This document shows, piece by piece, positions 1-16,991 of a stretch of 16,991 bases of DNA. A model generated the notes under the pieces. It ran no database searches and had not been told where the DNA came from. It saw only the letters and a program-made list of their open reading frames with translations. Every line of letters begins with the position of its first letter. Position 1 is the first letter of the stretch. The stretch is from Cyanobacteriota bacterium. Its GTDB lineage: Bacteria > Cyanobacteriota > Cyanobacteriia > Cyanobacteriales > Nostocaceae. Location of the stretch: NCBI GenBank assembly GCA_046045965.1, contig JBJOKS010000052.1, positions 1 to 16,991 on the forward strand, read 5' to 3'. A program made the position numbers and the translations under genes.

Positions 1-16
1 TTTTTTGATCAAAGGC

Positions 17-46
17 TTGCTATTTTCTAGAACCTTGTGTTATTCT
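17..46 (+). promoter_or_regulatory. Putative sigma70-type promoter of tRNA-Pro
   Basis: TTGCTA (17-22), 18-nt spacer, extended TGn-TATTCT (38-46), about 90 nt upstream of the tRNA. Pattern match only. Confidence 0.35.
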
Positions 47-137
47 CGTAAGAGTGACTTAATTAAGTTTAGATTCACAAATTTGGAATAAATCCCCAAT
101 CCAAAACCTAAAATTGAGAATCTAAAAGTTAAGTTAA

Positions 138-211
138 CGGGGCGTAGCGCAGCTTGGTAGCGCGCCACTTTGGGGTAGTGGAGGTCGTGGGTTCGAATCC
201 CGCCGCTCCGA
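138..211 (+). tRNA. trnP: tRNA-Pro(GGG)
   Basis: Cloverleaf: acceptor CGGGGCG/CGCTCCG, D arm GCGC-AGCTTGGTA-GCGC, anticodon stem CCACT/AGTGG with loop TTGGGGT (GGG at 172-174), T arm GTGGG-TTCGAAT-CCCGC, discriminator A. CCA is not encoded. Confidence 0.97.
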
Positions 212-251
212 TTTTTAAAAAACCTTACAGTGTATAGCTTTCAAGGATAAC

Positions 252-386
252 TAGGTAGAAAGCAATAAACTCTCTTAAATTACTTTCTACCAATTTTCTA
301 CCAAAAGTAAATACTACTTAATGAAATAATTTGTAGTTAGTAAGTTTGTATTAGCTAGAAAATATAATCTACCAGTTTTCTACCAA
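252..386. repeat. TTTCTACCAA-type repeats (integrase arm-site-like) downstream of tRNA-Pro
   Basis: Direct copies at 284-293 and 295-304, and at 366-375 (AATCTACCAG) and 377-386; each pair has an 11-bp period. Inverted copy TAGGTAGAAA at 252-261. Confidence 0.6.
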
Positions 387-422
387 CAGTACACTTTTAC
401 TATATAGCGTATCTAAACTATT

Positions 423-529
423 TACAGCAGATTTCATGTAAGTGAAGTATACCACTAGCGGGCAAGATGCCCGCACCACAAGAGTTTTATTATTCATCTC
501 TGTACCTCATAAGATCGGTAAGTGCTGTA
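423..529. mobile_element. Small MITE-like element with TA-bounded inverted ends and an internal palindrome
   Basis: Ends TACAGCA (423-429) and TGCTGTA (523-529), weaker subterminal complementarity (TGAAGTATA / TGTACCTCA), internal hairpin GCGGGCAAGATGCCCGC (458-474). Confidence 0.55.
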
Positions 530-881
530 TATACTGATTTTAAGTGTTTAATATATACTTCTGGTGAAGTCAAGTTTATAAACCATGCAGTTACTAAACA
601 GCTAAATAGCTGCAAGTGGCTAAAATTAGATATTACATAAACTACATATAATCTGACTGTATATATATTTCATACTTAATATACCTTTTGATATACTTCA
701 TTTCTTACACTGTTTATCTGATTGAGGCTGCTAAACGCTTTATATCAAAATTAATAATTCTTATGGGTGTAAAGGAAACGGGACTCCTACTATATGATTT
801 AGCAAATACTATATTTGTTTAAAAAAAACAATTTAGTAAATATTTCTAAAATCACATAAATATGTGTAAAGGCACTTAAAT

Positions 882-1184
882 ATGGAAAGAAATGCAGCTT
901 ATGAGAAATTAGTAGGTGACATTAAGAAAAAATTGATATATCTAGAGGATGAAATTAACTCGATTCCAGATTTTCTGAATCCCAAGGATGTATTGAATAC
1001 GCTTATAAAAAATAACTTTAATCCTTTACAAATTATTCATTCATTTGATGAAAGATTCAAAGAATTATCAAGTGAAATAGATAAGCTGAGAGCAAAAGCA
1101 CAAAACGGTATTGATTACTATACTATAGGTTTTAAAAAAACAAGCTCACCTGCACAAGTCAATCAACAGAGCGAGAAATTATAA
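882..1184 (+). CDS. Hypothetical protein (100 aa, helical/coiled-coil-like)
   Basis: Open ATG-TAA frame in very AT-rich DNA; no family recognised. Confidence 0.55.
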   Translation: MERNAAYEKLVGDIKKKLIYLEDEINSIPDFLNPKDVLNTLIKNNFNPLQIIHSFDERFKELSSEIDKLRAKAQNGIDYYTIGFKKTSSPAQVNQQSEKL

Positions 1185-1251
1185 ATTAAATAAAACCTTA
1201 TTTTCTAGCCATAACTCAACCTACTGACTAACTCCTGAATAGTCCTAAAAT

Positions 1252-1478
1252 TTTCAATGTTGTTATTCGTTAAAGTTAATAACTTCAAGATGCAGATTAT
1301 TTATGATGATAATAATATCATTTTCTGGTATTCCTGCATCTGCTAATTTGGCTATTACCTCAGATAAATTAACTGTACTAATTGCAGCTTTACCAATAAA
1401 TTTTAACACTTCTTCGCTTCCAGGTTCTTGATTGAGTAAAGCTAAAATTGCCGAAGGATCGAAAACAACTTCACTCAT
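1252..1478 (-). pseudogene. vapC: Truncated PIN-domain (VapC) toxin
   Basis: N-terminal PIN motifs (VVFDPSAILALL, ISTVNLSEV), but the frame stops at 71 aa. After FNE the DNA reads TAA CAA CA TTG AAA, consistent with a degraded E-Q-A-L-K (nonsense change plus 1-nt deletion). The C-terminal acidic motifs are missing. Confidence 0.8.
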
Positions 1479-1713
1479 TTAAACTTTCCTCTCTCCGTTC
1501 CTGAATTAATTTTTCAGATAGTTTTATATTAGCTGGAATATATTTTCTAAAAATATCTTGGGCATTTTTTACAGAATTATGGAAATCATCACTTATTGGT
1601 TGATTGTCTAATACAATAACTGCTTTACATTTTCCTTTTGGAATGTCTACAGGAGAATTAACTAACAATTTTACGTCACTGGTTATAGTCACTGTTACAC
1701 CTAATGTAATCAT
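1471..1713 (-). CDS. Putative antitoxin of the downstream VapC
   Basis: About 80 aa ORF overlapping the PIN start by 8 nt (translational coupling); C-terminal LSEKLIQERREE motif resembles VapB-like partners. Alternative start at 1725. Confidence 0.7.
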   Translation of the reverse strand: MITLGVTVTITSDVKLLVNSPVDIPKGKCKAVIVLDNQPISDDFHNSVKNAQDIFRKYIPANIKLSEKLIQERREESLNE

Positions 1714-1743
1714 AATGAACCCCATTAGTTAATTAGTTTATTA

Positions 1744-1772
1744 ATTATATCATAAAATGTGAATTTTGTCAG
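1744..1772 (-). promoter_or_regulatory. Hybrid promoter: -35 from the repeat terminus, -10 from the cassette
   Basis: Minus strand reads CTGACA (1772-1767), 17 nt, then TGn-extended TATAAT (1749-1744). Confidence 0.6.
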
Positions 1773-2003
1773 AATCAGGATGTCCAGGATTTGAGGATGT
1801 ACAGGATGGTTTTTTAATCTTTATCTATATTTTCAGAAGTTGCATTTTATCTGAATCAGGATGTTCAGGATTTGAGGATGTACAGGATGGGTTTTTCATA
1901 TTCATCTACATTTTCATAAGTTGCGCTAATTCAAATATCCCAGAATATCAAAATCAAATATAATCCTGTTAATCCTTTAATCCAGGTTATCCTGATTCAG
2001 ACA
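1767..2003. repeat. Inverted-repeat (MITE-like) element, copy 1: 156-bp core 1848-2003 plus an 81-bp duplicated left segment
   Basis: Termini TGTC(A/T)GAATCAGGAT ... ATCCTGATTCAGACA; ~41-bp imperfect arms built from AGGAT/ATCCT units; near-identical to 2775-2930 and 3652-3887. Confidence 0.9.
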
Positions 2004-2067
2004 GTTAAACATATTATTAAAATAATAAAAAACGGTGCATTAAATAAAGTTGATTAACGCACCTTAA
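2004..2067 (-). terminator. Junction repeat J1: REP-like hairpin with U-tract
   Basis: GGTGCATTAA-N10-TTAACGCACC (2034-2063), followed on the minus strand by GTTTTTTATT; lies just after the 2072 stop codon. Confidence 0.7.
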
Positions 2068-2071
2068 AATA

Positions 2072-2239
2072 TCAGCGTGATTTTACCACTGTCTTCAAGG
2101 GAAGAGAGATAATTTTTCTGCCACTTGTTGCTTGTTGTTTTCTTAAATCAGCACAAATAGCGGCTAAATCATAATTAAATGACTTAGCTTGTTCATCTCT
2201 GATTTTCCGAATTTCTGCCAAAACTTCATCATTCAACAT
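2072..2239 (-). CDS. Small putative antitoxin/partner of the upstream PIN protein (55 aa, absent from the ORF track)
   Basis: Manual translation MLNDEVLAEIRKIRDEQAKSFNYDLAAICADLRKQQATSGRKIISLPLKTVVKSR*; the ATG is 3 nt after the PIN stop. Resembles the small proteins that follow this PIN subfamily (recognition from memory). Confidence 0.8.
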   Translation of the reverse strand: MLNDEVLAEIRKIRDEQAKSFNYDLAAICADLRKQQATSGRKIISLPLKTVVKSR

Positions 2240-2242
2240 AAA

Positions 2243-2716
2243 TTATTCTCCTAACATTTCATAAGGTGTACATATTGTTGGTAGTTCATACCCTAAACTA
2301 TCAGCAATTTGTGAGAGTTTTTTCTGAATATAGGGGTTAGCAATGTGTTTACAATTCCATGTTAACAGATAATCTAAACCATAGACGGTAGCTGTAGCAA
2401 TATGAACAGTATCATAAGCAGCAGTCGGTGGTAAATTACTTTGTTTTTGAAATTCCTGTGCTAAGTTTTGTACTGGTTCTGTGATATCAAGTAAAGAAAA
2501 GTTATTTAAAACTTCTAGTCTTTTGTTCACCATTTCTGGATCACCTTTTGCTACTTCTTGCAATACCAGTTGAGAAATGTAAATAGTAAAAGAATTTCTC
2601 TGAGTATCCCACCAGTCTCTTGTTAATTCCGCATTAGCAGCAACAATTAAATTTTTACTAGGTCTTGCTGTTAAATAACCAATAATACTTGTTTCTATGT
2701 ATATTGTTTTGGTCAT
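2243..2716 (-). CDS. PIN-domain nuclease (VapC-like toxin)
   Basis: IYIETSIIGYL N-terminal motif, ISQLVLQE, and DTVHIA...DYLLTWNCKHIAN C-terminal PIN motifs. Confidence 0.88.
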   Translation of the reverse strand: MTKTIYIETSIIGYLTARPSKNLIVAANAELTRDWWDTQRNSFTIYISQLVLQEVAKGDPEMVNKRLEVLNNFSLLDITEPVQNLAQEFQKQSNLPPTAAYDTVHIATATVYGLDYLLTWNCKHIANPYIQKKLSQIADSLGYELPTICTPYEMLGE

Positions 2717-2774
2717 ATTATTAAAGTGCGATTACTTTGCTAAATTTACTATACTGTATTTTGTTAATCTTTTT

Positions 2775-2930
2775 TGTCTGAATCAGGATATCCAGGATTT
2801 GAGGATGTACAGGATGGTTTTTTCATATTCATCTACATTTTCATAAGTTGCGCTAATTCAAACATCCCAGAATATCAAAATCAAATATTATCCTGTTAAT
2901 CCTTTAATCCTGGTTATCATGATTCAGACA
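2775..2930. repeat. Inverted-repeat (MITE-like) element, copy 2 (156-bp core only)
   Basis: TGTCTGAATCAGGAT ... ATCATGATTCAGACA; near-identical to 1848-2003 and 3732-3887. Confidence 0.9.
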
Positions 2931-2995
2931 GTTAAATTTTAATAAAAAACGGTGCATTAAATAAAGTTGATTAACGCACCCTACGAGATGAGCGA
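2931..2995 (-). terminator. Junction repeat J2: GTAG-REP-like hairpin with U-tract
   Basis: Minus strand TCGCTCATCTC-GTAG-GGTGCGTTAA-N10-TTAATGCACC-GTTTTTTATT, starting 1 nt after the vapC stop. Confidence 0.72.
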
Positions 2996-2996
2996 A

Positions 2997-3398
2997 CTAT
3001 TTCATCAAATAATTATTGAGTTCAGGATATTGAGAAAAGAAACCGTCAATACTGGCTAATTTTGCTTGATATTCTAATGTGGTAGCAATAATTAAACGAT
3101 CAAATGGATCTTTATGAACAGGAGATAAATTTACAGCACGACAGGAAATTTCTACAGTTACGGGAAATAATGTAATACCTGATGGTTCTAATGCTTCTTG
3201 AAACCATTGATTAGCACTACAAGGTAATTGTAGTCTTCCCTTGTGTTGTGCAAGTGCTATTTCATAACAGGAAATAACGGAAATTCCTACTTCTTCTGAT
3301 GTTTCAATAGCTTCTCTCCAATGGGTAGGAAATCTCTGAAATTCCTGATTAATAAACCAGAACCAGATATGAGTATCAAGGATAATTATTTGAGACAT
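2997..3398 (-). CDS. vapC: Type II TA VapC toxin (PIN domain)
   Basis: ILDTHIWFW, ISVISCYEI, HKDPFDRLIIAT and SID motifs intact; overlaps the upstream antitoxin. Alternative start at 3404. Confidence 0.92.
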   Translation of the reverse strand: MSQIIILDTHIWFWFINQEFQRFPTHWREAIETSEEVGISVISCYEIALAQHKGRLQLPCSANQWFQEALEPSGITLFPVTVEISCRAVNLSPVHKDPFDRLIIATTLEYQAKLASIDGFFSQYPELNNYLMK

Positions 3399-3595
3399 TC
3401 CCATTCTTCTTCATTGACAATAGGACTAACAATATCACCTAATGTTTTACCTTTACCAGCAATGGAACTAGGAGGAGTACGGCGTTTTTTTGCTGGTAAT
3501 TGGTGTTTGAGAAATTGAATAAAATCTAAAACTTCTTGTTGTTTATCTGCTGGTAATTCTCGTAAGTTTTCTAAAACTGCTTGTTCAATGGTCAT
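3386..3595 (-). CDS. DUF2281-like antitoxin
   Basis: LRELPADKQQEVLDFIQFL motif; C-terminal GDIVSP..EEEW; overlaps the vapC start. Confidence 0.85.
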   Translation of the reverse strand: MTIEQAVLENLRELPADKQQEVLDFIQFLKHQLPAKKRRTPPSSIAGKGKTLGDIVSPIVNEEEWECLK

Positions 3596-3651
3596 AGTTT
3601 TACTTTTACTTTTAGGAGTATAATGTAATTATATTATATATTATCACTTTT

Positions 3652-3887
3652 TGTCTGAATCAGGATGTCCAGGATTTGAGGATTTACAGGATGGTTTTTC
3701 ATATTCATCTATATTTTTAGAAGTTGCATTTTGTCTGAATCAGGATGTACAAGATTTGAGGATGTACAGGATGGTTTTTTAATATTCATCTACATTTTCA
3801 GAAATTGCGCTAATTCAAATATCCAAGAATATCAATATCAAATATTATCCTGTTAATCCTTTAATCCTGGTTATCCTGATTCAGACA
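3652..3887. repeat. Inverted-repeat (MITE-like) element, copy 3: 156-bp core 3732-3887 plus an 80-bp duplicated left segment
   Basis: TGTCTGAATCAGGAT at 3652 and 3732; ATCCTGATTCAGACA ending at 3887. Confidence 0.9.
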
Positions 3888-3948
3888 GTTAAATTTTAAT
3901 AAAAAACGGTGCATTACATTTCACTAACGCACGCTATAGGATGAGCGA
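3888..3948 (-). terminator. Junction repeat J3: REP-like hairpin with U-tract
   Basis: GTTAAATTTTAATAAAAAACGGTGCATTA-N8-TAACGCACG-CTATAGGATGAGCGA; ends 3 nt from the 3952 stop. Confidence 0.7.
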
Positions 3949-3951
3949 TAT

Positions 3952-4590
3952 TTATGTTGTCGGATAAATCAGAATTGTTATTCCATCTTTTTTGAATGTA
4001 GTTGAAAAACTATAATTATGATTTATTGCCACATCAATAAAGAAACCAGCAAAAACTCCAATACCAGCACCTATTAAAACACCTGGTATCAGTCCTATTC
4101 CTCCACCTATTAAACCAACTCCAGCCCCTACAGTAGCACCTGCAATAACACTTATCATAAACATTGGGGGGTTTGGTTGGCTGTACGCAACAGATGAAGC
4201 ACCAGCAGATAAAGCATCAGCCAGAGGAGCAAAAGCACCAACAGAAGGCGAATCTAAACCAGAACTTTCATCATCCTTTAGCTTTTTCTTATTGAAGAAA
4301 TCATTATCGTGGGTTGCTAAAATTTTCTTTAGTCCAAGTGGAATATAAGCGTATTTCTTGTAATTAGTCTTTACTTCAACATATTTACCTTCTTCTAGAG
4401 TAGATATAAGTTCATTATAAAATTTATCTGTGTCTTGAAATTCCAACACTTTTATATTTTTATCTATGCTCTGAACATTGGAAGTTTCAACTCTAGAAAT
4501 TGCTTGAACAGGTAAAGACAAAGAAAATGATAATAGTAATATCATCACTAATATCAGAATTTTGGAAGTGAATAAGTTTTTGAGTAACAT
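3952..4590 (-). CDS. Hypothetical exported protein with a C-terminal glycine-zipper hydrophobic region
   Basis: Signal-peptide-like N-terminus (KILILVMILLLSFSLSLPVQA); GATVGAGVGLIGGGIGLIPGVLIGAGIGVFAG GxxxG array. Confidence 0.75.
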   Translation of the reverse strand: MLLKNLFTSKILILVMILLLSFSLSLPVQAISRVETSNVQSIDKNIKVLEFQDTDKFYNELISTLEEGKYVEVKTNYKKYAYIPLGLKKILATHDNDFFNKKKLKDDESSGLDSPSVGAFAPLADALSAGASSVAYSQPNPPMFMISVIAGATVGAGVGLIGGGIGLIPGVLIGAGIGVFAGFFIDVAINHNYSFSTTFKKDGITILIYPTT

Positions 4591-4670
4591 CTTTTTAATC
4601 CCTCACGAATAGCCTGAAAATCTAATAATCATGCAAATGCTAAACTTAGAATTTTTATACACTAATTTGA

Positions 4671-4720
4671 GTTAAATATCAATAAAAAAAGGTGCGTTTA
4701 ATTTAATCAGCGCACCTTAT
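4671..4720 (-). terminator. Junction repeat J4 (without the 156-bp element)
   Basis: GTTAAATATCAATAAAAAAAGGTGCGTT-N10-AGCGCACCTTAT aligns with J1-J3 from GTTAAA onward. Confidence 0.7.
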
Positions 4721-4735
4721 CAAAAGATATAATGA

Positions 4736-5140
4736 TTACTTATTTTTTAACAATTGGACTAATATGTCATTACTTACACGCTCTTCATGTTTTTTGATCT
4801 GACGTGGAATGGTAAATAAATCTAAAAGCATCATTATTCCAAGTAATCCCAAAGGTAATAGCCCAACAGCTAGAACTATACTAGCATCCTCGGATGTAAT
4901 AGATGTATCGTATGCAGACGCAACGCCACCTAATTCTAAAAAGCATCCTGAGAACAAAAGAATAATATATAGAAGACCCATTATAGGTTTTCCGATGTAA
5001 AACTTGTGACCTCCTATACTTCCTAAAAAGAAATATAAAATGTACGCAATTGTAGTGCTTTTGCGTTTTCGGTCTAGCTCAGAATTGAATATAATTAACT
5101 CACGATCAGTCAAATTTTTTTGAGCTTGGATGCTATTCAT
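4736..5140 (-). CDS. TM2-domain membrane protein
   Basis: KRKSTTIAYILYFFLGSIGGHKFYIGK...GLLY motif and C-terminal DLFTIP, typical of TM2 proteins. Confidence 0.88.
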   Translation of the reverse strand: MNSIQAQKNLTDRELIIFNSELDRKRKSTTIAYILYFFLGSIGGHKFYIGKPIMGLLYIILLFSGCFLELGGVASAYDTSITSEDASIVLAVGLLPLGLLGIMMLLDLFTIPRQIKKHEERVSNDILVQLLKNK

Positions 5141-5194
5141 TTTTCCCGCCTTTAACTTATTCTATGTATAAATACTCTTACTTAGAGCAACTAT

Positions 5195-5237
5195 ACTATA
5201 CAAGAATTTTATTTACATGGCTGTGATTTGTATCACG
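5195..5237 (-). promoter_or_regulatory. Class II CRP-type promoter upstream of the TM2 gene
   Basis: Minus strand CGTGA-N6-TCACA (5237-5222), 21 nt, TATAGT (5200-5195); the site centre falls at -41.5 if +1 is about 5188. Confidence 0.6.
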
Positions 5238-5271
5238 TATTATAAATTCACTATATGGTACTTTTAAACGT

Positions 5272-5300
5272 TGTAGAGACGCACCCCAAACGCCTCTACA
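5272..5300. repeat. GTAG-type REP-like palindrome downstream of serS
   Basis: TGTAGAGACG-N9-CGCCTCTACA, 11 nt after the serS stop. Confidence 0.7.
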
Positions 5301-5311
5301 AAAACCCTATC

Positions 5312-6592
5312 CTACAAAACCTCCCTACCCAAATAAACCTGCAAAACCTCCGGCACTTTAATCGTCCCATCAGCTTGCTGATAATTCTCCAAAATAGCCG
5401 CCATAGTCCTTCCCACAGCTAAACCAGAACCATTTAAAGTATGTACAAATTGCGTCCCTTTCTTACCAGCTTCCTTAAACCGAATATCCGCCCTTCTTGC
5501 TTGAAAATCAACACAATTAGAACAACTAGAAATCTCTCGATATTTCCCAGAAGAAGGCAACCAAACCTCTAAATCATAAGTCTTAGTTGCCCCAAAACCT
5601 AAATCAGCAGTACATAAATTAATCACTCGATAAGGCAACTTTAAACCCTGTAAAATTGACTCTGCACTAGCGACTAACTTCTCCAATTCCTCAAAAGAAT
5701 TTTCCGGTTTTACTAACTTCACCAACTCCACTTTATTGAATTGATGCAACCGAATTAAACCCCGCATATCCCGTCCATAACTTCCCGCTTCTCGCCGAAA
5801 ACAAGGAGTATAAGCACAGTGATAAATCGGTAATTCTTCCGCGTTGATAATTTCCCCCCGATAAAAATTTGTAACGGGAACTTCCGCAGTAGGAATTAAC
5901 CACAATTCATCATCTGCACATTTAAAACTTTCTTCCGCAAACTTCGGTAATTGTCCAGTTCCCGTTAAAGAATCAGTATTAACTAACAACGGTGGACTAA
6001 CTTCAATATACCCATTTTCAATATGCTTAGAAAGCATAAATTGAATTAACGCCCTTTCTAAAGCAGCACCCGCACCTATCAAACTCACAAACCGACTTTG
6101 GGCAATTTTTACCGCTCTTTCAAAATTCAAAATACCCAACTTTTCCCCAATTTCCCAATGAGGTAAAATATTCGGGTTTTCCGGTTTATATTCATCTCCC
6201 CATCTTCTCACCTCTGGGTTATCATCTTCACTTGCACCGATGGGAGTAGTATCACTAGGAAGGTTAGGAAGTGCTAAAATTAAATCTTGAATTTGTGCTT
6301 TTAATTCTTTTTCCTGGGGTTCTAAATCGCTTAATGTGATTTTAATATTATTCCCCTCTTCCTTTAAAGCGAGAATTTCCTCACTTTGGGGACTAACACC
6401 CGATTTTATCTTTTGTCCTACCAGTTTACCAATTTCATTACTCCGCGCTTGTAAATCGTTGCGTTTTCCTTCCAGTTCCCGTTGTTTTTGACTTAAATCT
6501 AATATAGGTTGAATGTCATATTTACCACTGCGACTGTTCAACTTTTCTTGTACTAATTGGGGGTTTTCTCTAATTTGTTTAATATCCAGCAT
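5312..6592 (-). CDS. serS: Serine--tRNA ligase
   Basis: [11 protein letters not shown] start, coiled-coil arm, [63 protein letters not shown]. Confidence 0.99.
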
Positions 6593-6644
6593 TTTTCGTT
6601 GTCGTTAATTTTGTCAATTGTACTTGATGGAGGTGATTAAGCGT

Positions 6645-6671
6645 TAGGGTTTAGCAATACTAAATCCCTAC
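6645..6671. repeat. REP-like palindrome
   Basis: TAGGGTTTAG-CAATA-CTAAATCCCTAC. Confidence 0.55.
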
Positions 6672-6754
6672 CAATAATCAATCATATCTATTATTAACAC
6701 CAGTTTTATACAATAACCATACAAAATCATCAAATTAATCAAAATCCCTTTTTC

Positions 6755-6784
6755 ATCCGCGTTTATCTGCGTTCATCTGCGTTC
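6755..6784. repeat. 10-bp tandem repeat (ATCTGCGTTC) x3
   Basis: ATCCGCGTTT ATCTGCGTTC ATCTGCGTTC. Confidence 0.75.
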
Positions 6785-6800
6785 TACTCTCAATATAGAA

Positions 6801-6884
6801 TGTAGGTTGGGTTGAGAAAACCCAACATTTATAAGATATTTATAATATTTTGTTGGGTTGCACTATCGCTTAACCCAACCTACA
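6801..6884. repeat. REPIN-like inverted doublet of GTAG REPs
   Basis: TGTAGGTTGGGTT..AACCCAACA, AT-rich spacer, TGTTGGGTT..AACCCAACCTACA; 13-bp perfect outer inverted repeat. Confidence 0.8.
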
Positions 6885-6925
6885 AAATATGATAAACTAA
6901 AACTAAAATCAGGAGGTTTTCAGCA

Positions 6926-7510
6926 ATGATGACATCTGAACCAGTAATTTTAAATATCAAAAATATTGGTTTAAGTGATGAACAATTTTTTCAACTCTGT
7001 CAAACTAACGAATGTTGGAAAATTGAACAAACAGCTAAAGATGAATTAATTATTCTCCCTGGTTCTAATTTAATTACTGGTAATAGAGAAGCGGAATTAA
7101 ATGGAAATTTGATGATTTGGAATCGTCAAAGTAAGCTAGGAAAAGTCTTTAGTTCTTCTACTATTTTCACTTTACCTAATGGTGGTAAACGTTCCCCTGA
7201 TGTCGCTTGGATAGTTAATGAACGTTGGGATGCTTTAAGCATTGAAGAACAAGAAAAATTCCCTAAAATTTGTCCTGATTTTGTCATAGAATTACGTTCT
7301 CGCACTGATTCTTTAACTCAATTACAGGAGAAAATGCAGGAATATCTTCATAGTGGTTTACGTTTAGGTTGGTTAATTGATCCGCAAAATCAACAAGTAG
7401 AAATTTATCGTCAAAATCAACCTGTAGAAATTCTATCATTACCGACATCTTTATCAGGAGAAGATGTTTTACCAGGATTTATTTTAGCACTACCTCTTTT
7501 CCATGATTAA
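6926..7510 (+). CDS. Uma2 family (DUF820) PD-(D/E)XK endonuclease-like protein
   Basis: RSPDVAW, CPDFVIELRS, LGWLIDP, LSGEDVLPGF motifs; SD AGGAGG at 6911-6916; extended -10 TGnTAAACT at 6890-6898. Confidence 0.95.
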   Translation: MMTSEPVILNIKNIGLSDEQFFQLCQTNECWKIEQTAKDELIILPGSNLITGNREAELNGNLMIWNRQSKLGKVFSSSTIFTLPNGGKRSPDVAWIVNERWDALSIEEQEKFPKICPDFVIELRSRTDSLTQLQEKMQEYLHSGLRLGWLIDPQNQQVEIYRQNQPVEILSLPTSLSGEDVLPGFILALPLFHD

Positions 7511-11424: not shown

Positions 11425-11434
11425 TTGGTAATTC

Positions 11435-11502
11435 AATTTTGGATTTTGGATTTTGGATTTTGTTAACTCCAATCTAAAATCTAAAATCTAAAATCTAAAA
11501 TT
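11435..11502. repeat. Inverted heptamer STRR arrays between convergent genes (probable bidirectional terminator)
   Basis: (TTTTGGA)x3 facing (TCTAAAA)x4. Confidence 0.8.
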
Positions 11503-11530
11503 TTTCTCCCCAGTCCCCAGTTACCAGTCA

Positions 11531-12772
11531 CTATTGCAGAGAAATTAACAGATTTTGATTAATTGTCATTTCTAAATCTGTGTTAGGTTCAATAGCAATT
11601 AAATCTACACTATTCCTACCAAAGAAAAGACCAATCAGCGCCCCAATACCAGCACCTCCCAGAATTTCTTCTGTAGCAATAGCGCGATCGCCTGTTACCG
11701 CAGACACCGCCGCCGCTGCTCCTGCTCCTAATACAGTATTTCTGATAATTGAACTGGTGCTAGTCCCTTTTCTGACAGTTTCGGTTTTGGTGATCACATC
11801 AGAACTAGCAATAATGTTATATTCTTTACCATTTGTCAAAATTAATTTTTGAGCCACAAATTGAGAACCACCTTGCGCCGGTCTAAGTTCACCGATCACC
11901 TGACTACCAGCAGGAATTACCACTGTTCCATCTTGAGTAATTACACTTTGTGATGTTGTCAAAGTTAAAGGTGCAGTTTCATCTTTAGTCACGAGAATCT
12001 TTTCTGCCTTTTCATACTTGACAGGAATAATAGTTCCTTGAGGAATGGTGACATTTGTAACTGGTTGTGGAATGGGTTGAAGAGAGACAACATAAGGTGA
12101 ATTAATTGCAGCGGCCTGATTAGCACTAACCAGTGCTTGATAGATAAAAGCCGCTACCTGCGCTCTGGTAGCAGTTACACCGGGATTAAGAAATTTAACA
12201 TTAGGATAGTTGACTACAATTCTTCTCTCAGTGGCCGCAGCAATGGGAGTGCGGGCATAGTCGGAGATACCAGCAGAATCATTGTAGTATTGTAGAGTGC
12301 TTTCCACATTACCACCAGCAGCATATTCCAAACCGTTAGCCAGGGAAACTAAAACTTGTTCACGGGGAATAGCTTGGTTAGGTCTAAAGACATTGCCTGG
12401 ATATCCAGACAAGAAACCGATAGCGTAAGATTGTCTAATGGCGTTGTATGCCCAAAAATTACTGGGGACATCATTAAAATTGATTGGTTGCCGTTGTGCA
12501 GACTTGCTAAAAGCCTTATTAATCATCGCCGCAAACTGAGCGCGTGTCACCGGTTCTTCGGGACGAAATGTACCATCAGGAAATCCCGCAATTACACCCC
12601 GTTGTGATAATTGTTGAATAAATTGTGATGCCCAGTAGTTAGATGAAACATCCGAAAAACTCGTTTGTGCTAAGGACGGAGTAGTAGTCATCAAGGGTGC
12701 TACAGTACCGACTGTAACACTTAAAGCCATAAATAAGGCTGTTTGTGATTTCAATCCATTTAAACTTAACAT
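11531..12772 (-). CDS. S-layer homology (SLH) domain protein
   Basis: Signal peptide, three SLH repeats (FSDV..NYWA..I, GFPDGTFRPEEPVTRAQFA, GYPGNVFRPNQAIPREQ, ATRAQVAAF), C-terminal glycine-zipper domain. Confidence 0.92.
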   Translation of the reverse strand: MLSLNGLKSQTALFMALSVTVGTVAPLMTTTPSLAQTSFSDVSSNYWASQFIQQLSQRGVIAGFPDGTFRPEEPVTRAQFAAMINKAFSKSAQRQPINFNDVPSNFWAYNAIRQSYAIGFLSGYPGNVFRPNQAIPREQVLVSLANGLEYAAGGNVESTLQYYNDSAGISDYARTPIAAATERRIVVNYPNVKFLNPGVTATRAQVAAFIYQALVSANQAAAINSPYVVSLQPIPQPVTNVTIPQGTIIPVKYEKAEKILVTKDETAPLTLTTSQSVITQDGTVVIPAGSQVIGELRPAQGGSQFVAQKLILTNGKEYNIIASSDVITKTETVRKGTSTSSIIRNTVLGAGAAAAVSAVTGDRAIATEEILGGAGIGALIGLFFGRNSVDLIAIEPNTDLEMTINQNLLISLQ

Positions 12773-16316: not shown

Positions 16317-16665
16317 TTTTAGGTTAGATGGGTATAAAATGCAGATGCAGTATCTTGATAATTCATCAATAGAAAGTATCCATTGACAGAATTGATGATA
16401 ATTTTCAACTAAAATCTATAAATGTGCGTAAAATGTGCGTAAGTGCTAGAGTGTTAACTTGTGATCTTGCACAGTTTTATTCATTACACAAATTTTCGTA
16501 CTGGTTGATACCATCTTTCCAAAAAGATAGACGTGATCACTCATCACTTTAGTCACCCAAATGAATGGTTAATAGGTTTTAAACAGCAGATATTTTTCAG
16601 CTATCTTCCATTTACTCTAATATTTAAAGTTTAAGAATAGGTAAGCTTTTAGTGAAATGTAGGTA

Positions 16666-16698
16666 ACTGGGGACTGGGGACTGGGGACTGGGGACTGG
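16666..16698. repeat. STRR1-type heptamer (ACTGGGG) x4.7
   Basis: Direct tandem repeat; reverse complement is CCCCAGT. Confidence 0.9.
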
Positions 16699-16792
16699 AA
16701 AGATGAATCATCCAATTATCAATTAAGTAAGTTGGTAGGAAAAAACCGCAGCAAGTACAAAAATGTAAAATCGCTAACAGTCTTTCCCCTCT

Positions 16793-16897
16793 TGCCTCCT
16801 GCCTCCTGCCTCCTGCCTCTTGCCTCCTGCCTCCTGCCTCCTGCCTCTTGCCTCCTGCCTACTGCCTCCTGCCTACTGCCTCCTGCCTACTGTCTAC
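16793..16897. repeat. Heptamer tandem repeat (TGCCTCC/TGCCTCT/TGCCTAC) x15
   Basis: 15 consecutive 7-mers counted directly. Confidence 0.92.
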
Positions 16898-16991
16898 CGT
16901 TGGCCTGTAACAATATATGCGACTCGTTGACCAATATTAGTAGCGTGATCTGCCATGCGTTCTAAACATCGAATTGCTAATGTTAATAGTA

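What the first reader, a model, noticed from the sequence alone, without database searches (positions are those of the whole stretch)
1252..5300. Integron-like cassette array of TA and membrane genes, punctuated by one junction repeat, downstream of serS with no integrase in the window
Seen: five unrelated units, all on the minus strand like serS: TM2; glycine-zipper protein; DUF2281+VapC; PIN+55-aa partner; antitoxin+truncated VapC. Every internal boundary holds a copy of the same junction, GTTAAA..AATAAAAAA.GGTGCRTT..N..CGCAC (2004-2067, 2931-2995, 3888-3948, 4671-4720). Units carry almost no DNA of their own beyond the ORFs and a short promoter. Known: co-orientation, minimal flanks, palindromic spacers and TA enrichment are hallmarks of integron cassette arrays, but these spacers look like GTAG-REP hairpins, not canonical attC. 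Inference: a repeat-directed gene capture/shuffling system whose recombinase (possibly a RAYT/HUH or tyrosine recombinase) acts in trans.
Basis: partly seen in the sequence, partly recalled or inferred. Interest (0 to 1): 0.85.

Follow-up and report, generated by a model that had tools for sequence, protein, structure and literature searches.

The report
Integrase-free shuffled toxin-antitoxin cassette array
Behind one housekeeping gene, dozens of related cyanobacteria carry small toxin-antitoxin gene modules from one shared pool in many different orders, separated by a repeat built from sequences that elsewhere flank a nuclease-like gene and a transposase-like gene, and the modules are likely reshuffled by ordinary recombination at that repeat rather than by an integron enzyme.

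Summary
The spacer is a ~220-bp composite. The composite occurs in 41 of 389 family genomes (9 genera), just downstream of serS where checked. Nine module types (eight TA-type pairs, DUF29) give 24 orders in 26 loci, and 21 of 30 pairs occur in both orders. The slot next to serS holds 40 gene families in 39 loci, including CBASS. It is not an integron: no IntI, 0 of 107 junctions with attC cores, staggered joins, and HicAB moves without B. Variants inside A are scrambled and unlinked to either neighbour, which favours RecA-type recombination (0.55). GxxExxY-driven cutting is the main rival (0.2). No mechanism was tested directly. Ten literature searches found no description. Earlier scan notes report the GxxExxY-palindrome pairing on other DNA, but not this array.

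The parts
5312..6592 (-). serS, the conserved proximal anchor
   Evidence: PF00587 and PF02403; the array lies just downstream in relatives
5273..5299 (.). Small GTAG-tagged hairpin after the serS stop; strain-specific sequence starts here or at the stop codon
   Evidence: sequence; first 170 nt after serS in 33 loci
4736..5140 (-). TM2-domain gene, 134 aa; serS-proximal variable slot
   Evidence: PF05154 E 5.9e-13; its own family among slot-1 ORFs of 39 loci
4671..4722 (.). B only (no A): spacer plus distal REP of a RAYT 3' REP doublet
   Evidence: aligns with the doublet behind the in-array RAYT of G208 and G247
3952..4590 (-). 212-aa glycine-rich gene; serS-proximal variable slot
   Evidence: its own family among slot-1 ORFs; no PADLOC hit
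3888..3948 (.). B, copy 3
3652..3887 (.). Repeat A, copy 3 (236 bp; inverted ~45-bp arms, 80-nt tandem subunit)
   Evidence: same arms flank GxxExxY genes
2997..3595 (-). Module V1: DUF2281/VapB-like (3386-3595) + PIN/VapC (2997-3404)
   Evidence: 90-95% DNA identity to copies in other arrays
2931..2996 (.). B, copy 2 (complete GTAG-tagged REP hairpin followed by a T run on the gene strand)
2775..2930 (.). Repeat A, copy 2 (156 bp)
   Evidence: A+B folds with z = -6.8 against shuffles
2072..2716 (-). Module V2: PIN (2243-2716) + 55-aa partner (2072-2239)
   Evidence: 97.4-97.5% identical to copies in three genomes of another genus whose serS is 86.8-88.7% identical
2004..2066 (.). B, copy 1
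1767..2003 (.). Repeat A, copy 1 (237 bp; 81-nt tandem subunit)
1263..1725 (-). Module V3: 84-aa antitoxin-like gene (1471-1725) + VapC cut at about codon 71 (1263-1478); 127 aa in relatives

Best explanation
This is a chromosomal array downstream of serS in which toxin-antitoxin-type modules from a shared pool stand in different orders between copies of a locus-specific ~220-bp repeat, and it is likely shuffled by RecA-type homologous recombination inside that repeat rather than by an integrase. SHOWN: the repeat is B (half of the REP doublet behind a RAYT gene) plus A (a gene-less palindrome with the arms that flank GxxExxY genes); modules start at A's right end; modules are gained, lost, duplicated and reordered; one module is far more alike across genera than serS is; the slot between serS and the first repeat is replaced wholesale between strains with nearly identical serS. 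INFERRED: a donor piece A-module-A (DNA taken up from a relative, or a sister chromosome) would pair by the two halves of A with any resident A and so add a module at any junction; a crossover between two copies of A would delete or duplicate modules; modules between direct repeats would survive mainly when they are addictive, which would explain why TA pairs fill the inner slots; slot 1 has only serS on its proximal side, cannot loop out, and would be exchanged with serS and the first repeat as homology arms; a new module would first join by one non-homologous event, leaving the module-specific 3' joins seen.
For: 24 distinct orders in 26 loci, 21 of 30 pairs in both orders, duplicated modules in 3 loci. 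Across 107 junctions, variants in A show no linkage to either neighbour (delta about 0 to +0.03, against +0.40 at the start of B); r2 falls from 0.107 under 15 nt to about 0.02 beyond 30 nt; 57-81% of site pairs show all four combinations. 3' joins are staggered and B is dispensable. V2 is 97.4-97.5% identical where serS is 86.8-88.7%, and the same-genus genomes G001 and G002 have no match to it. L235 and L243 are 99.5% identical over the last 600 bp of serS, have slots of 2870 and 979 bp that share only the ~67-bp B end, and have the same distal genes. recA and a ComEC-family gene are present; 147 of 164 Nostocales genomes hold the full competence gene set (PMC13603067, passages). Neither candidate enzyme is found in all carriers.
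Against: No recombination event was observed; contigs laid on the window showed no reliable deleted or circular form. The window's repeat copies share perfect matches of only 31-44 bp, so RecA exchange would be slow. Low linkage could partly come from recurrent change in the palindromic arms or from conversion by the 169 dispersed arms. A nuclease that cuts at scattered places in A would leave the same pattern. Within-genome identity of A (0.893) is barely above between-genome identity (0.872). The same paper notes that transformation of Anabaena and Aphanizomenon filaments is difficult. The model does not explain why modules start so close to A's right end.
Confidence: 0.55

Rival explanations
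1. The GxxExxY (PD-(D/E)XK) protein recognises and cuts A palindromes and so drives or strongly stimulates capture and exchange. A TA module would be non-autonomous cargo in the same A-gene-A layout as the nuclease gene.
For: In G000 the gene (C64:11043 running into C69, 127-nt contig overlap) has an arm at -69 and one behind its end. All 15 orthologues at 88-100% identity have an A arm at -69 or +35, and 0 of 12 at 54-58% have any. Their surroundings mostly differ between genomes. All 15 lie in array-bearing genomes, out of 201 searched. The ~81-nt arm period is shared. Modules start at A's right end. Uma2 genes lie near A arms more often than background, 13 of 55 against 4.6%.
Against: No activity is known or tested. 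G002 had no match, and G067, G153 and G193 only 57-58% paralogues, though all carry the repeat (assemblies break at these repeats). No GxxExxY gene lies in any mapped array. Co-occurrence is confounded by kinship. PIN genes outside the array are not significantly near A arms (3 of 25, p = 0.11). No fixed crossover point.
Confidence: 0.2
2. The RAYT that owns REP B cuts and rejoins single-stranded DNA at B and moves the modules.
For: A RAYT (NF047646, 189 bits) sits inside the arrays of G208, G247 and G070, among array modules in G035, broken in L071 and as a remnant in G067. B is its REP. RAYTs cleave and strand-transfer at short sites near REPs in vitro (PMC8266576, passages), which could give staggered joins.
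Against: Modules without a complete B are reordered like the rest. Only 9 of the 41 repeat-bearing genomes have a RAYT at 72% identity or more; G000's best is 53-54% and is flanked by another REP. Scrambling lies in A, not B. A role in founding the locus or in first joins stays open.
Confidence: 0.1
3. A is only a mobile repeat that keeps landing in front of TA promoters; the orders arise by independent insertions and deletions, with no role for the repeat in exchange.
For: A arms are dispersed (169 in 105 clusters) and often lie near small genes.
Against: The full 156-bp A is found only in the array (93.6-95.5% between copies, about 70% for the best match elsewhere). V2 copies at 87% identity or more lie only at this locus or among its modules; 5 of 5 distant paralogues checked have no A or B. 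No target-site duplications were noticed (not tested formally).
Confidence: 0.08
4. A true integron array without its integrase (CALIN), served by IntI or another tyrosine recombinase in trans.
For: Co-orientation (50 of 56 slot-1 ORFs), TA and defence cargo, cyanobacterial integrons exist (PMC8618304, passages), and G000 has four PF00589 matches on other contigs.
Against: No IntI (best 45 bits against a cut-off of 265; genome 92% complete). 0 of 107 junctions have RYYYAAC..GTTRRRY on either strand. Joins are staggered. Both parts of the spacer have another origin.
Confidence: 0.03

Closest known systems
Sedentary chromosomal integrons and CALINs (PMC8618304, passages read)
   Same: Tandem, co-oriented, repeat-separated modules at one chromosomal site; TA and anti-phage cargo; order differs between strains; the most variable cargo is at one end.
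   Different: No IntI and no attC cores; a 220-bp spacer from two other repeat families; staggered joins; crossovers appear spread over the spacer. It works like an integron array but is not a member.
REPtrons: RAYT/TnpA-REP with GTAG REPs (PMC3733652, PMC8266576, PMC5581495; passages read)
   Same: B is half of the REP doublet of a RAYT that lies in some arrays.
   Different: The passages read describe REPs spreading, not gene modules being shuffled. Most carriers lack this RAYT, and B is dispensable for module movement.
procA clusters with TnpA-REP in marine picocyanobacteria (bioRxiv 10.1101/2020.03.09.984088, first of two parts read)
   Same: A variable gene cluster in cyanobacteria interspersed with RAYT genes, with recombination-based diversification proposed.
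   Different: [quoted passage not shown]
E. coli folA-apaH interval with ccd TA and REP (review PMC3184786, passages read)
   Same: A variable intergenic site holding a TA pair and often a REP, with the repeat suggested to aid plasticity.
   Different: A single slot, not a multi-module array with reordering.
GxxExxY (TIGR04256) genes between palindromes
   Same: A is such a gene-less palindrome, with the cognate gene elsewhere in the genome.
   Different: Here the palindromes space an array of unrelated cargo at one fixed locus.

Membership tests
Integron / CALIN | IntI integron integrase in the locus or genome | tested here: not met
   TIGR02249 best 45 bits, cut-off 265; genome 92.2% complete
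Integron / CALIN | attC with RYYYAAC ... GTTRRRY cores 55-145 nt apart (consensus recalled) | tested here: not met
   0 of 107 junctions on either strand, and none in the window's four
Integron / CALIN | Single fixed crossover point | tested here: not met
   staggered 3' joins; no step in linkage inside A
Integron / CALIN | Tandem co-oriented cassettes whose content and order vary | tested here: met
Integron / CALIN | IntegronFinder attC model hit; circular intermediates | not testable with these tools
   IntegronFinder not available; Rfam gave only the tRNA in 1-7500; only contigs could be laid
REP / REPtron (part B) | GTAG-tagged hairpin in inverted doublets flanking a RAYT gene | tested here: met
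   (in relatives)
REP / REPtron (part B) | Cognate RAYT in the same genome | tested here: not met
   G000's best match is 53-54% and has another REP
GxxExxY-associated palindrome (part A) | The same arms bracket a TIGR04256 gene, and not distant paralogues | tested here: met
   15 of 15 close orthologues, 0 of 12 distant ones
GxxExxY-associated palindrome (part A) | The protein acts on the palindrome | not testable with these tools
   needs biochemistry
Type II toxin-antitoxin modules | Two small adjacent genes with toxin and antitoxin family domains | tested here: met
   PIN, DUF2281, HicA/HicB, Phd/YoeB, HigB, DUF433/DUF5615; the 55-aa and 84-aa partners have no family hit
Type II toxin-antitoxin modules | Toxicity neutralised by the partner | not testable with these tools
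   no assay; the window's third VapC is truncated

The most novel reading that the evidence does not exclude
The orphan GxxExxY nuclease family is the engine of a second, non-integron gene-cassette system: it cuts its own palindromes, cargo between two palindromes is captured and swapped, and the serS array is a cross-genus bank of TA and defence modules built on those sites.
Probability: 0.2. Interest if true: 0.9.

Novelty: new variant of a known kind. Interest (0 to 1): 0.7.

Why it matters
It shows that an integron-like cassette bank can arise without integrase or attC, from repeats left beside two small mobile-type genes, and be shared across nine genera at one locus. Integron detectors would be expected to miss such arrays. 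The serS-proximal slot is a compact place to look for new defence genes: 11 of 36 families scanned hit PADLOC (CBASS, PDC-M55, PDC-M11 among them) and 25 did not. It also hands the uncharacterised GxxExxY family a defined candidate substrate, so a recA versus GxxExxY versus RAYT test can be run directly.

Tried and rejected
(1) Loss of module V2 in a natural population: run X1 had almost no depth over 2085-2700, but X2 from the same sample, read whole, covers it without differences. The hole comes from partial reading. Joints listed there have sides of 21-45 letters inside repeats and were not used. (2) tRNA-Pro as boundary or insertion site: rejected. (3) RNA families: only the tRNA. (4) A supplying -35 boxes: two window sites fit (1772-1744 with 11 of 12 matches; 3657-3628), but total sites equal shuffles (21 against 21.8) and spacing varies among modules; not claimed. 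(5) B as terminator: one of four copies passes the scan; plausible, not shown. (7) A arms near PIN genes genome-wide: not significant. (8) Earlier scan notes by place, sequence and words held nothing on this array. Rows left out: one search dropped the 11 motif loci without serS or A, plus L072 and L078; one search used 35 serS-anchored loci with at least one module, with orders transcribed by hand and partial modules counted as present; one search left out 4 of 40 slot-1 families (RAYT, Phd, HigA, HigB); searches used only junctions with both A arms and removed a short insert before aligning.
Full report
OBSERVATION. The window is contig C52 of G000, a 5.29-Mb, 38% GC assembly. A named relative with 92% serS identity is Anabaena catenula FACHB-362 (L071). 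A arms are dispersed (169 in 105 clusters), but the whole 156-bp element exists only here, 93.6-95.5% identical between copies against about 70% for the best match elsewhere. A+B folds far better than shuffles (z = -6.8).

DISTRIBUTION. The short motif hit 50 of 301 family genomes, the reversed control 1. The 221-bp composite hit 41 of 389 genomes in 9 of 68 genera. In 40 fetched regions the composite lay just downstream of serS; 11 regions had the short motif alone, without serS or A. A map of 51 loci shows one pool of modules: four PIN/VapBC-type pairs, HicAB, DUF433-DUF5615, Phd-YoeB, an inverted HigBA, DUF29, and sometimes an inverted RAYT (families). Among 35 serS-anchored loci with modules, 26 have two or more types and give 24 orders; 21 of 30 pairs that co-occur at least twice appear in both orders; 36 of 72 possible adjacencies occur; 3 loci have duplicates (hand-transcribed). 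Metagenome contigs add further arrangements.

SLOT 1. Between serS and the first A arm, 39 loci hold 56 ORFs in 40 families, 50 of them co-oriented. Of 36 families scanned, 11 hit PADLOC, including CBASS, PDC-M55 A-C and PDC-M11 A-B. The window's TM2 and 212-aa genes are such cargo and hit nothing there. L235 and L243 (99.5% identical over the last 600 bp of serS) and L045 and L249 (99.7%) have unrelated slots that share only the B end.

ORIGIN OF THE SPACER. B: a RAYT (NF047646) lies inside the arrays of G208, G247 and G070, among array modules in G035, broken in L071 and as a remnant in G067. G000 lacks this RAYT (best 53-54%, another REP). A: G000 has a GxxExxY gene (TIGR04256) with A arms on both sides. 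All 15 orthologues at 88-100% have an arm at -69 or +35, three at 76-79% have partial arms, and 0 of 12 at 54-58% have any. I found this pairing before reading earlier scan notes that describe it on other DNA; those notes are not independent support.

WHERE EXCHANGE HAPPENS. Modules begin at A's right end, followed by a short stretch of their own; their 3' ends join the repeat at module-specific, staggered points. A complete B follows V1 (10 of 10), V2 (11 of 11), DUF5615 (2 of 2) and slot 1 (32 of 36), but V3 only 4 of 9 times and never V4 (0 of 11), HicAB (0 of 14) or YoeB (0 of 3). Over 107 junctions, variants in B travel with the upstream module, while variants in A are linked to neither neighbour; r2 decays from 0.107 to about 0.02, and 57-81% of site pairs show four combinations. 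One HicAB subtype keeps its variants about 25-50 nt into A, a gradual decay rather than a cut at A's edge. No junction has attC cores and no IntI was found. V2 is 97.4-97.5% identical between G000 and three genomes of another genus whose serS is 86.8-88.7% identical; copies at 87% or more lie only at this locus or among its modules.

MECHANISM. Shown: the anatomy, the origin of both spacer parts, the reordering, the wholesale replacement of slot 1, a module more alike across genera than serS is, and the lack of a fixed crossover. Inferred (0.55): RecA-type recombination in A inserts, deletes and duplicates modules; addiction keeps TA pairs between direct repeats, as argued for superintegrons (recalled; the studies appear only as references); slot 1 is exchanged between serS and the first repeat. 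recA and a ComEC-family gene are present. Against: perfect matches between the window's copies are only 31-44 bp, no event was observed, and recurrent change or a nuclease with scattered cuts could mimic the linkage pattern. Rivals: GxxExxY-driven (0.2), RAYT-driven (0.1), passive insertions (0.08), integron (0.03).

COMPARISON AND NOVELTY. It works like a chromosomal integron array but fails the membership tests for IntI, attC and fixed crossover. B belongs to the known GTAG REP/REPtron kind. Papers seen: passages of PMC5581495, PMC8618304, PMC3184786, PMC3733652, PMC8266576 and PMC13603067; the first of two parts of bioRxiv 10.1101/2020.03.09.984088; listings only for bioRxiv 10.1101/2024.07.02.601686 and PMC12614218. 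Ten searches found no description of this locus or of GxxExxY palindromes as cassette spacers; the library lacks most subscription papers, and no supplements were read.

VERDICT. A real, apparently undescribed, integrase-free cassette array; new variant of a known kind; interest 0.7. If GxxExxY proves to be the driver (probability 0.2), it would be a new class of cassette system (0.9).

Noticed in passing
window 219-866 and 1182-1260: About 92% identical to G000 C33:42284-42828 and 46127-46206; the CTACCARTTTTCTACCA pair at 287 and 369 recurs only at C33. The array's broken far end is fused to this segment beside tRNA-Pro. Possibly the end of an integrated element.
   Followed up: partly
window 6801-7510: A Uma2 gene behind another GTAG REP doublet is present in some relatives and missing in others between serS and DUF3611; the same REP type flanks G000's RAYT at C22:2406.
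   Followed up: partly
A arms in many relatives, e.g. L045, L063, L067: A 21-24-nt insert interrupts the arms at the same place, and HIP1 (GCGATCGC) often marks the left edge of B. The insert resembles the small dispersed repeats of Nostoc (recalled, not tested).
   Followed up: no
L043, L050 and metagenome loci L235, L243: The ~64-81-nt right-arm subunit of A is expanded up to nine times in tandem.
   Followed up: no
G000 genome-wide: 13 of 55 Uma2 genes lie within 400 bp of an A arm against 4.6% of 3624 ORFs (p = 1.4e-6); small TA-like genes between direct A arms occur on C4, C5, C10, C26 and C30.
   Followed up: partly
G000 C81:6656-7003 and C19:57916-58266: Two more GxxExxY genes, one with internal stops, each bracketed by its own different inverted short-period repeats.
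   Followed up: no
L190:4604-6902; L045:10462-14337; L047:5204-7836: CBASS (patatin + cyclase), PDC-M55 and PDC-M11 gene sets in the serS-proximal slot.
   Followed up: partly
L037, L040, L261: More distant relatives (serS about 79% DNA identity in L037 and L040) hold some of the same modules after serS with no A or B, and L261 with a degenerate repeat, so the site may have collected TA genes before the repeat arose.
   Followed up: partly
window 11433-11531, 16663-16708, 16774-16909: Short tandem repeats of 6-7 nt typical of filamentous cyanobacteria.
   Followed up: no
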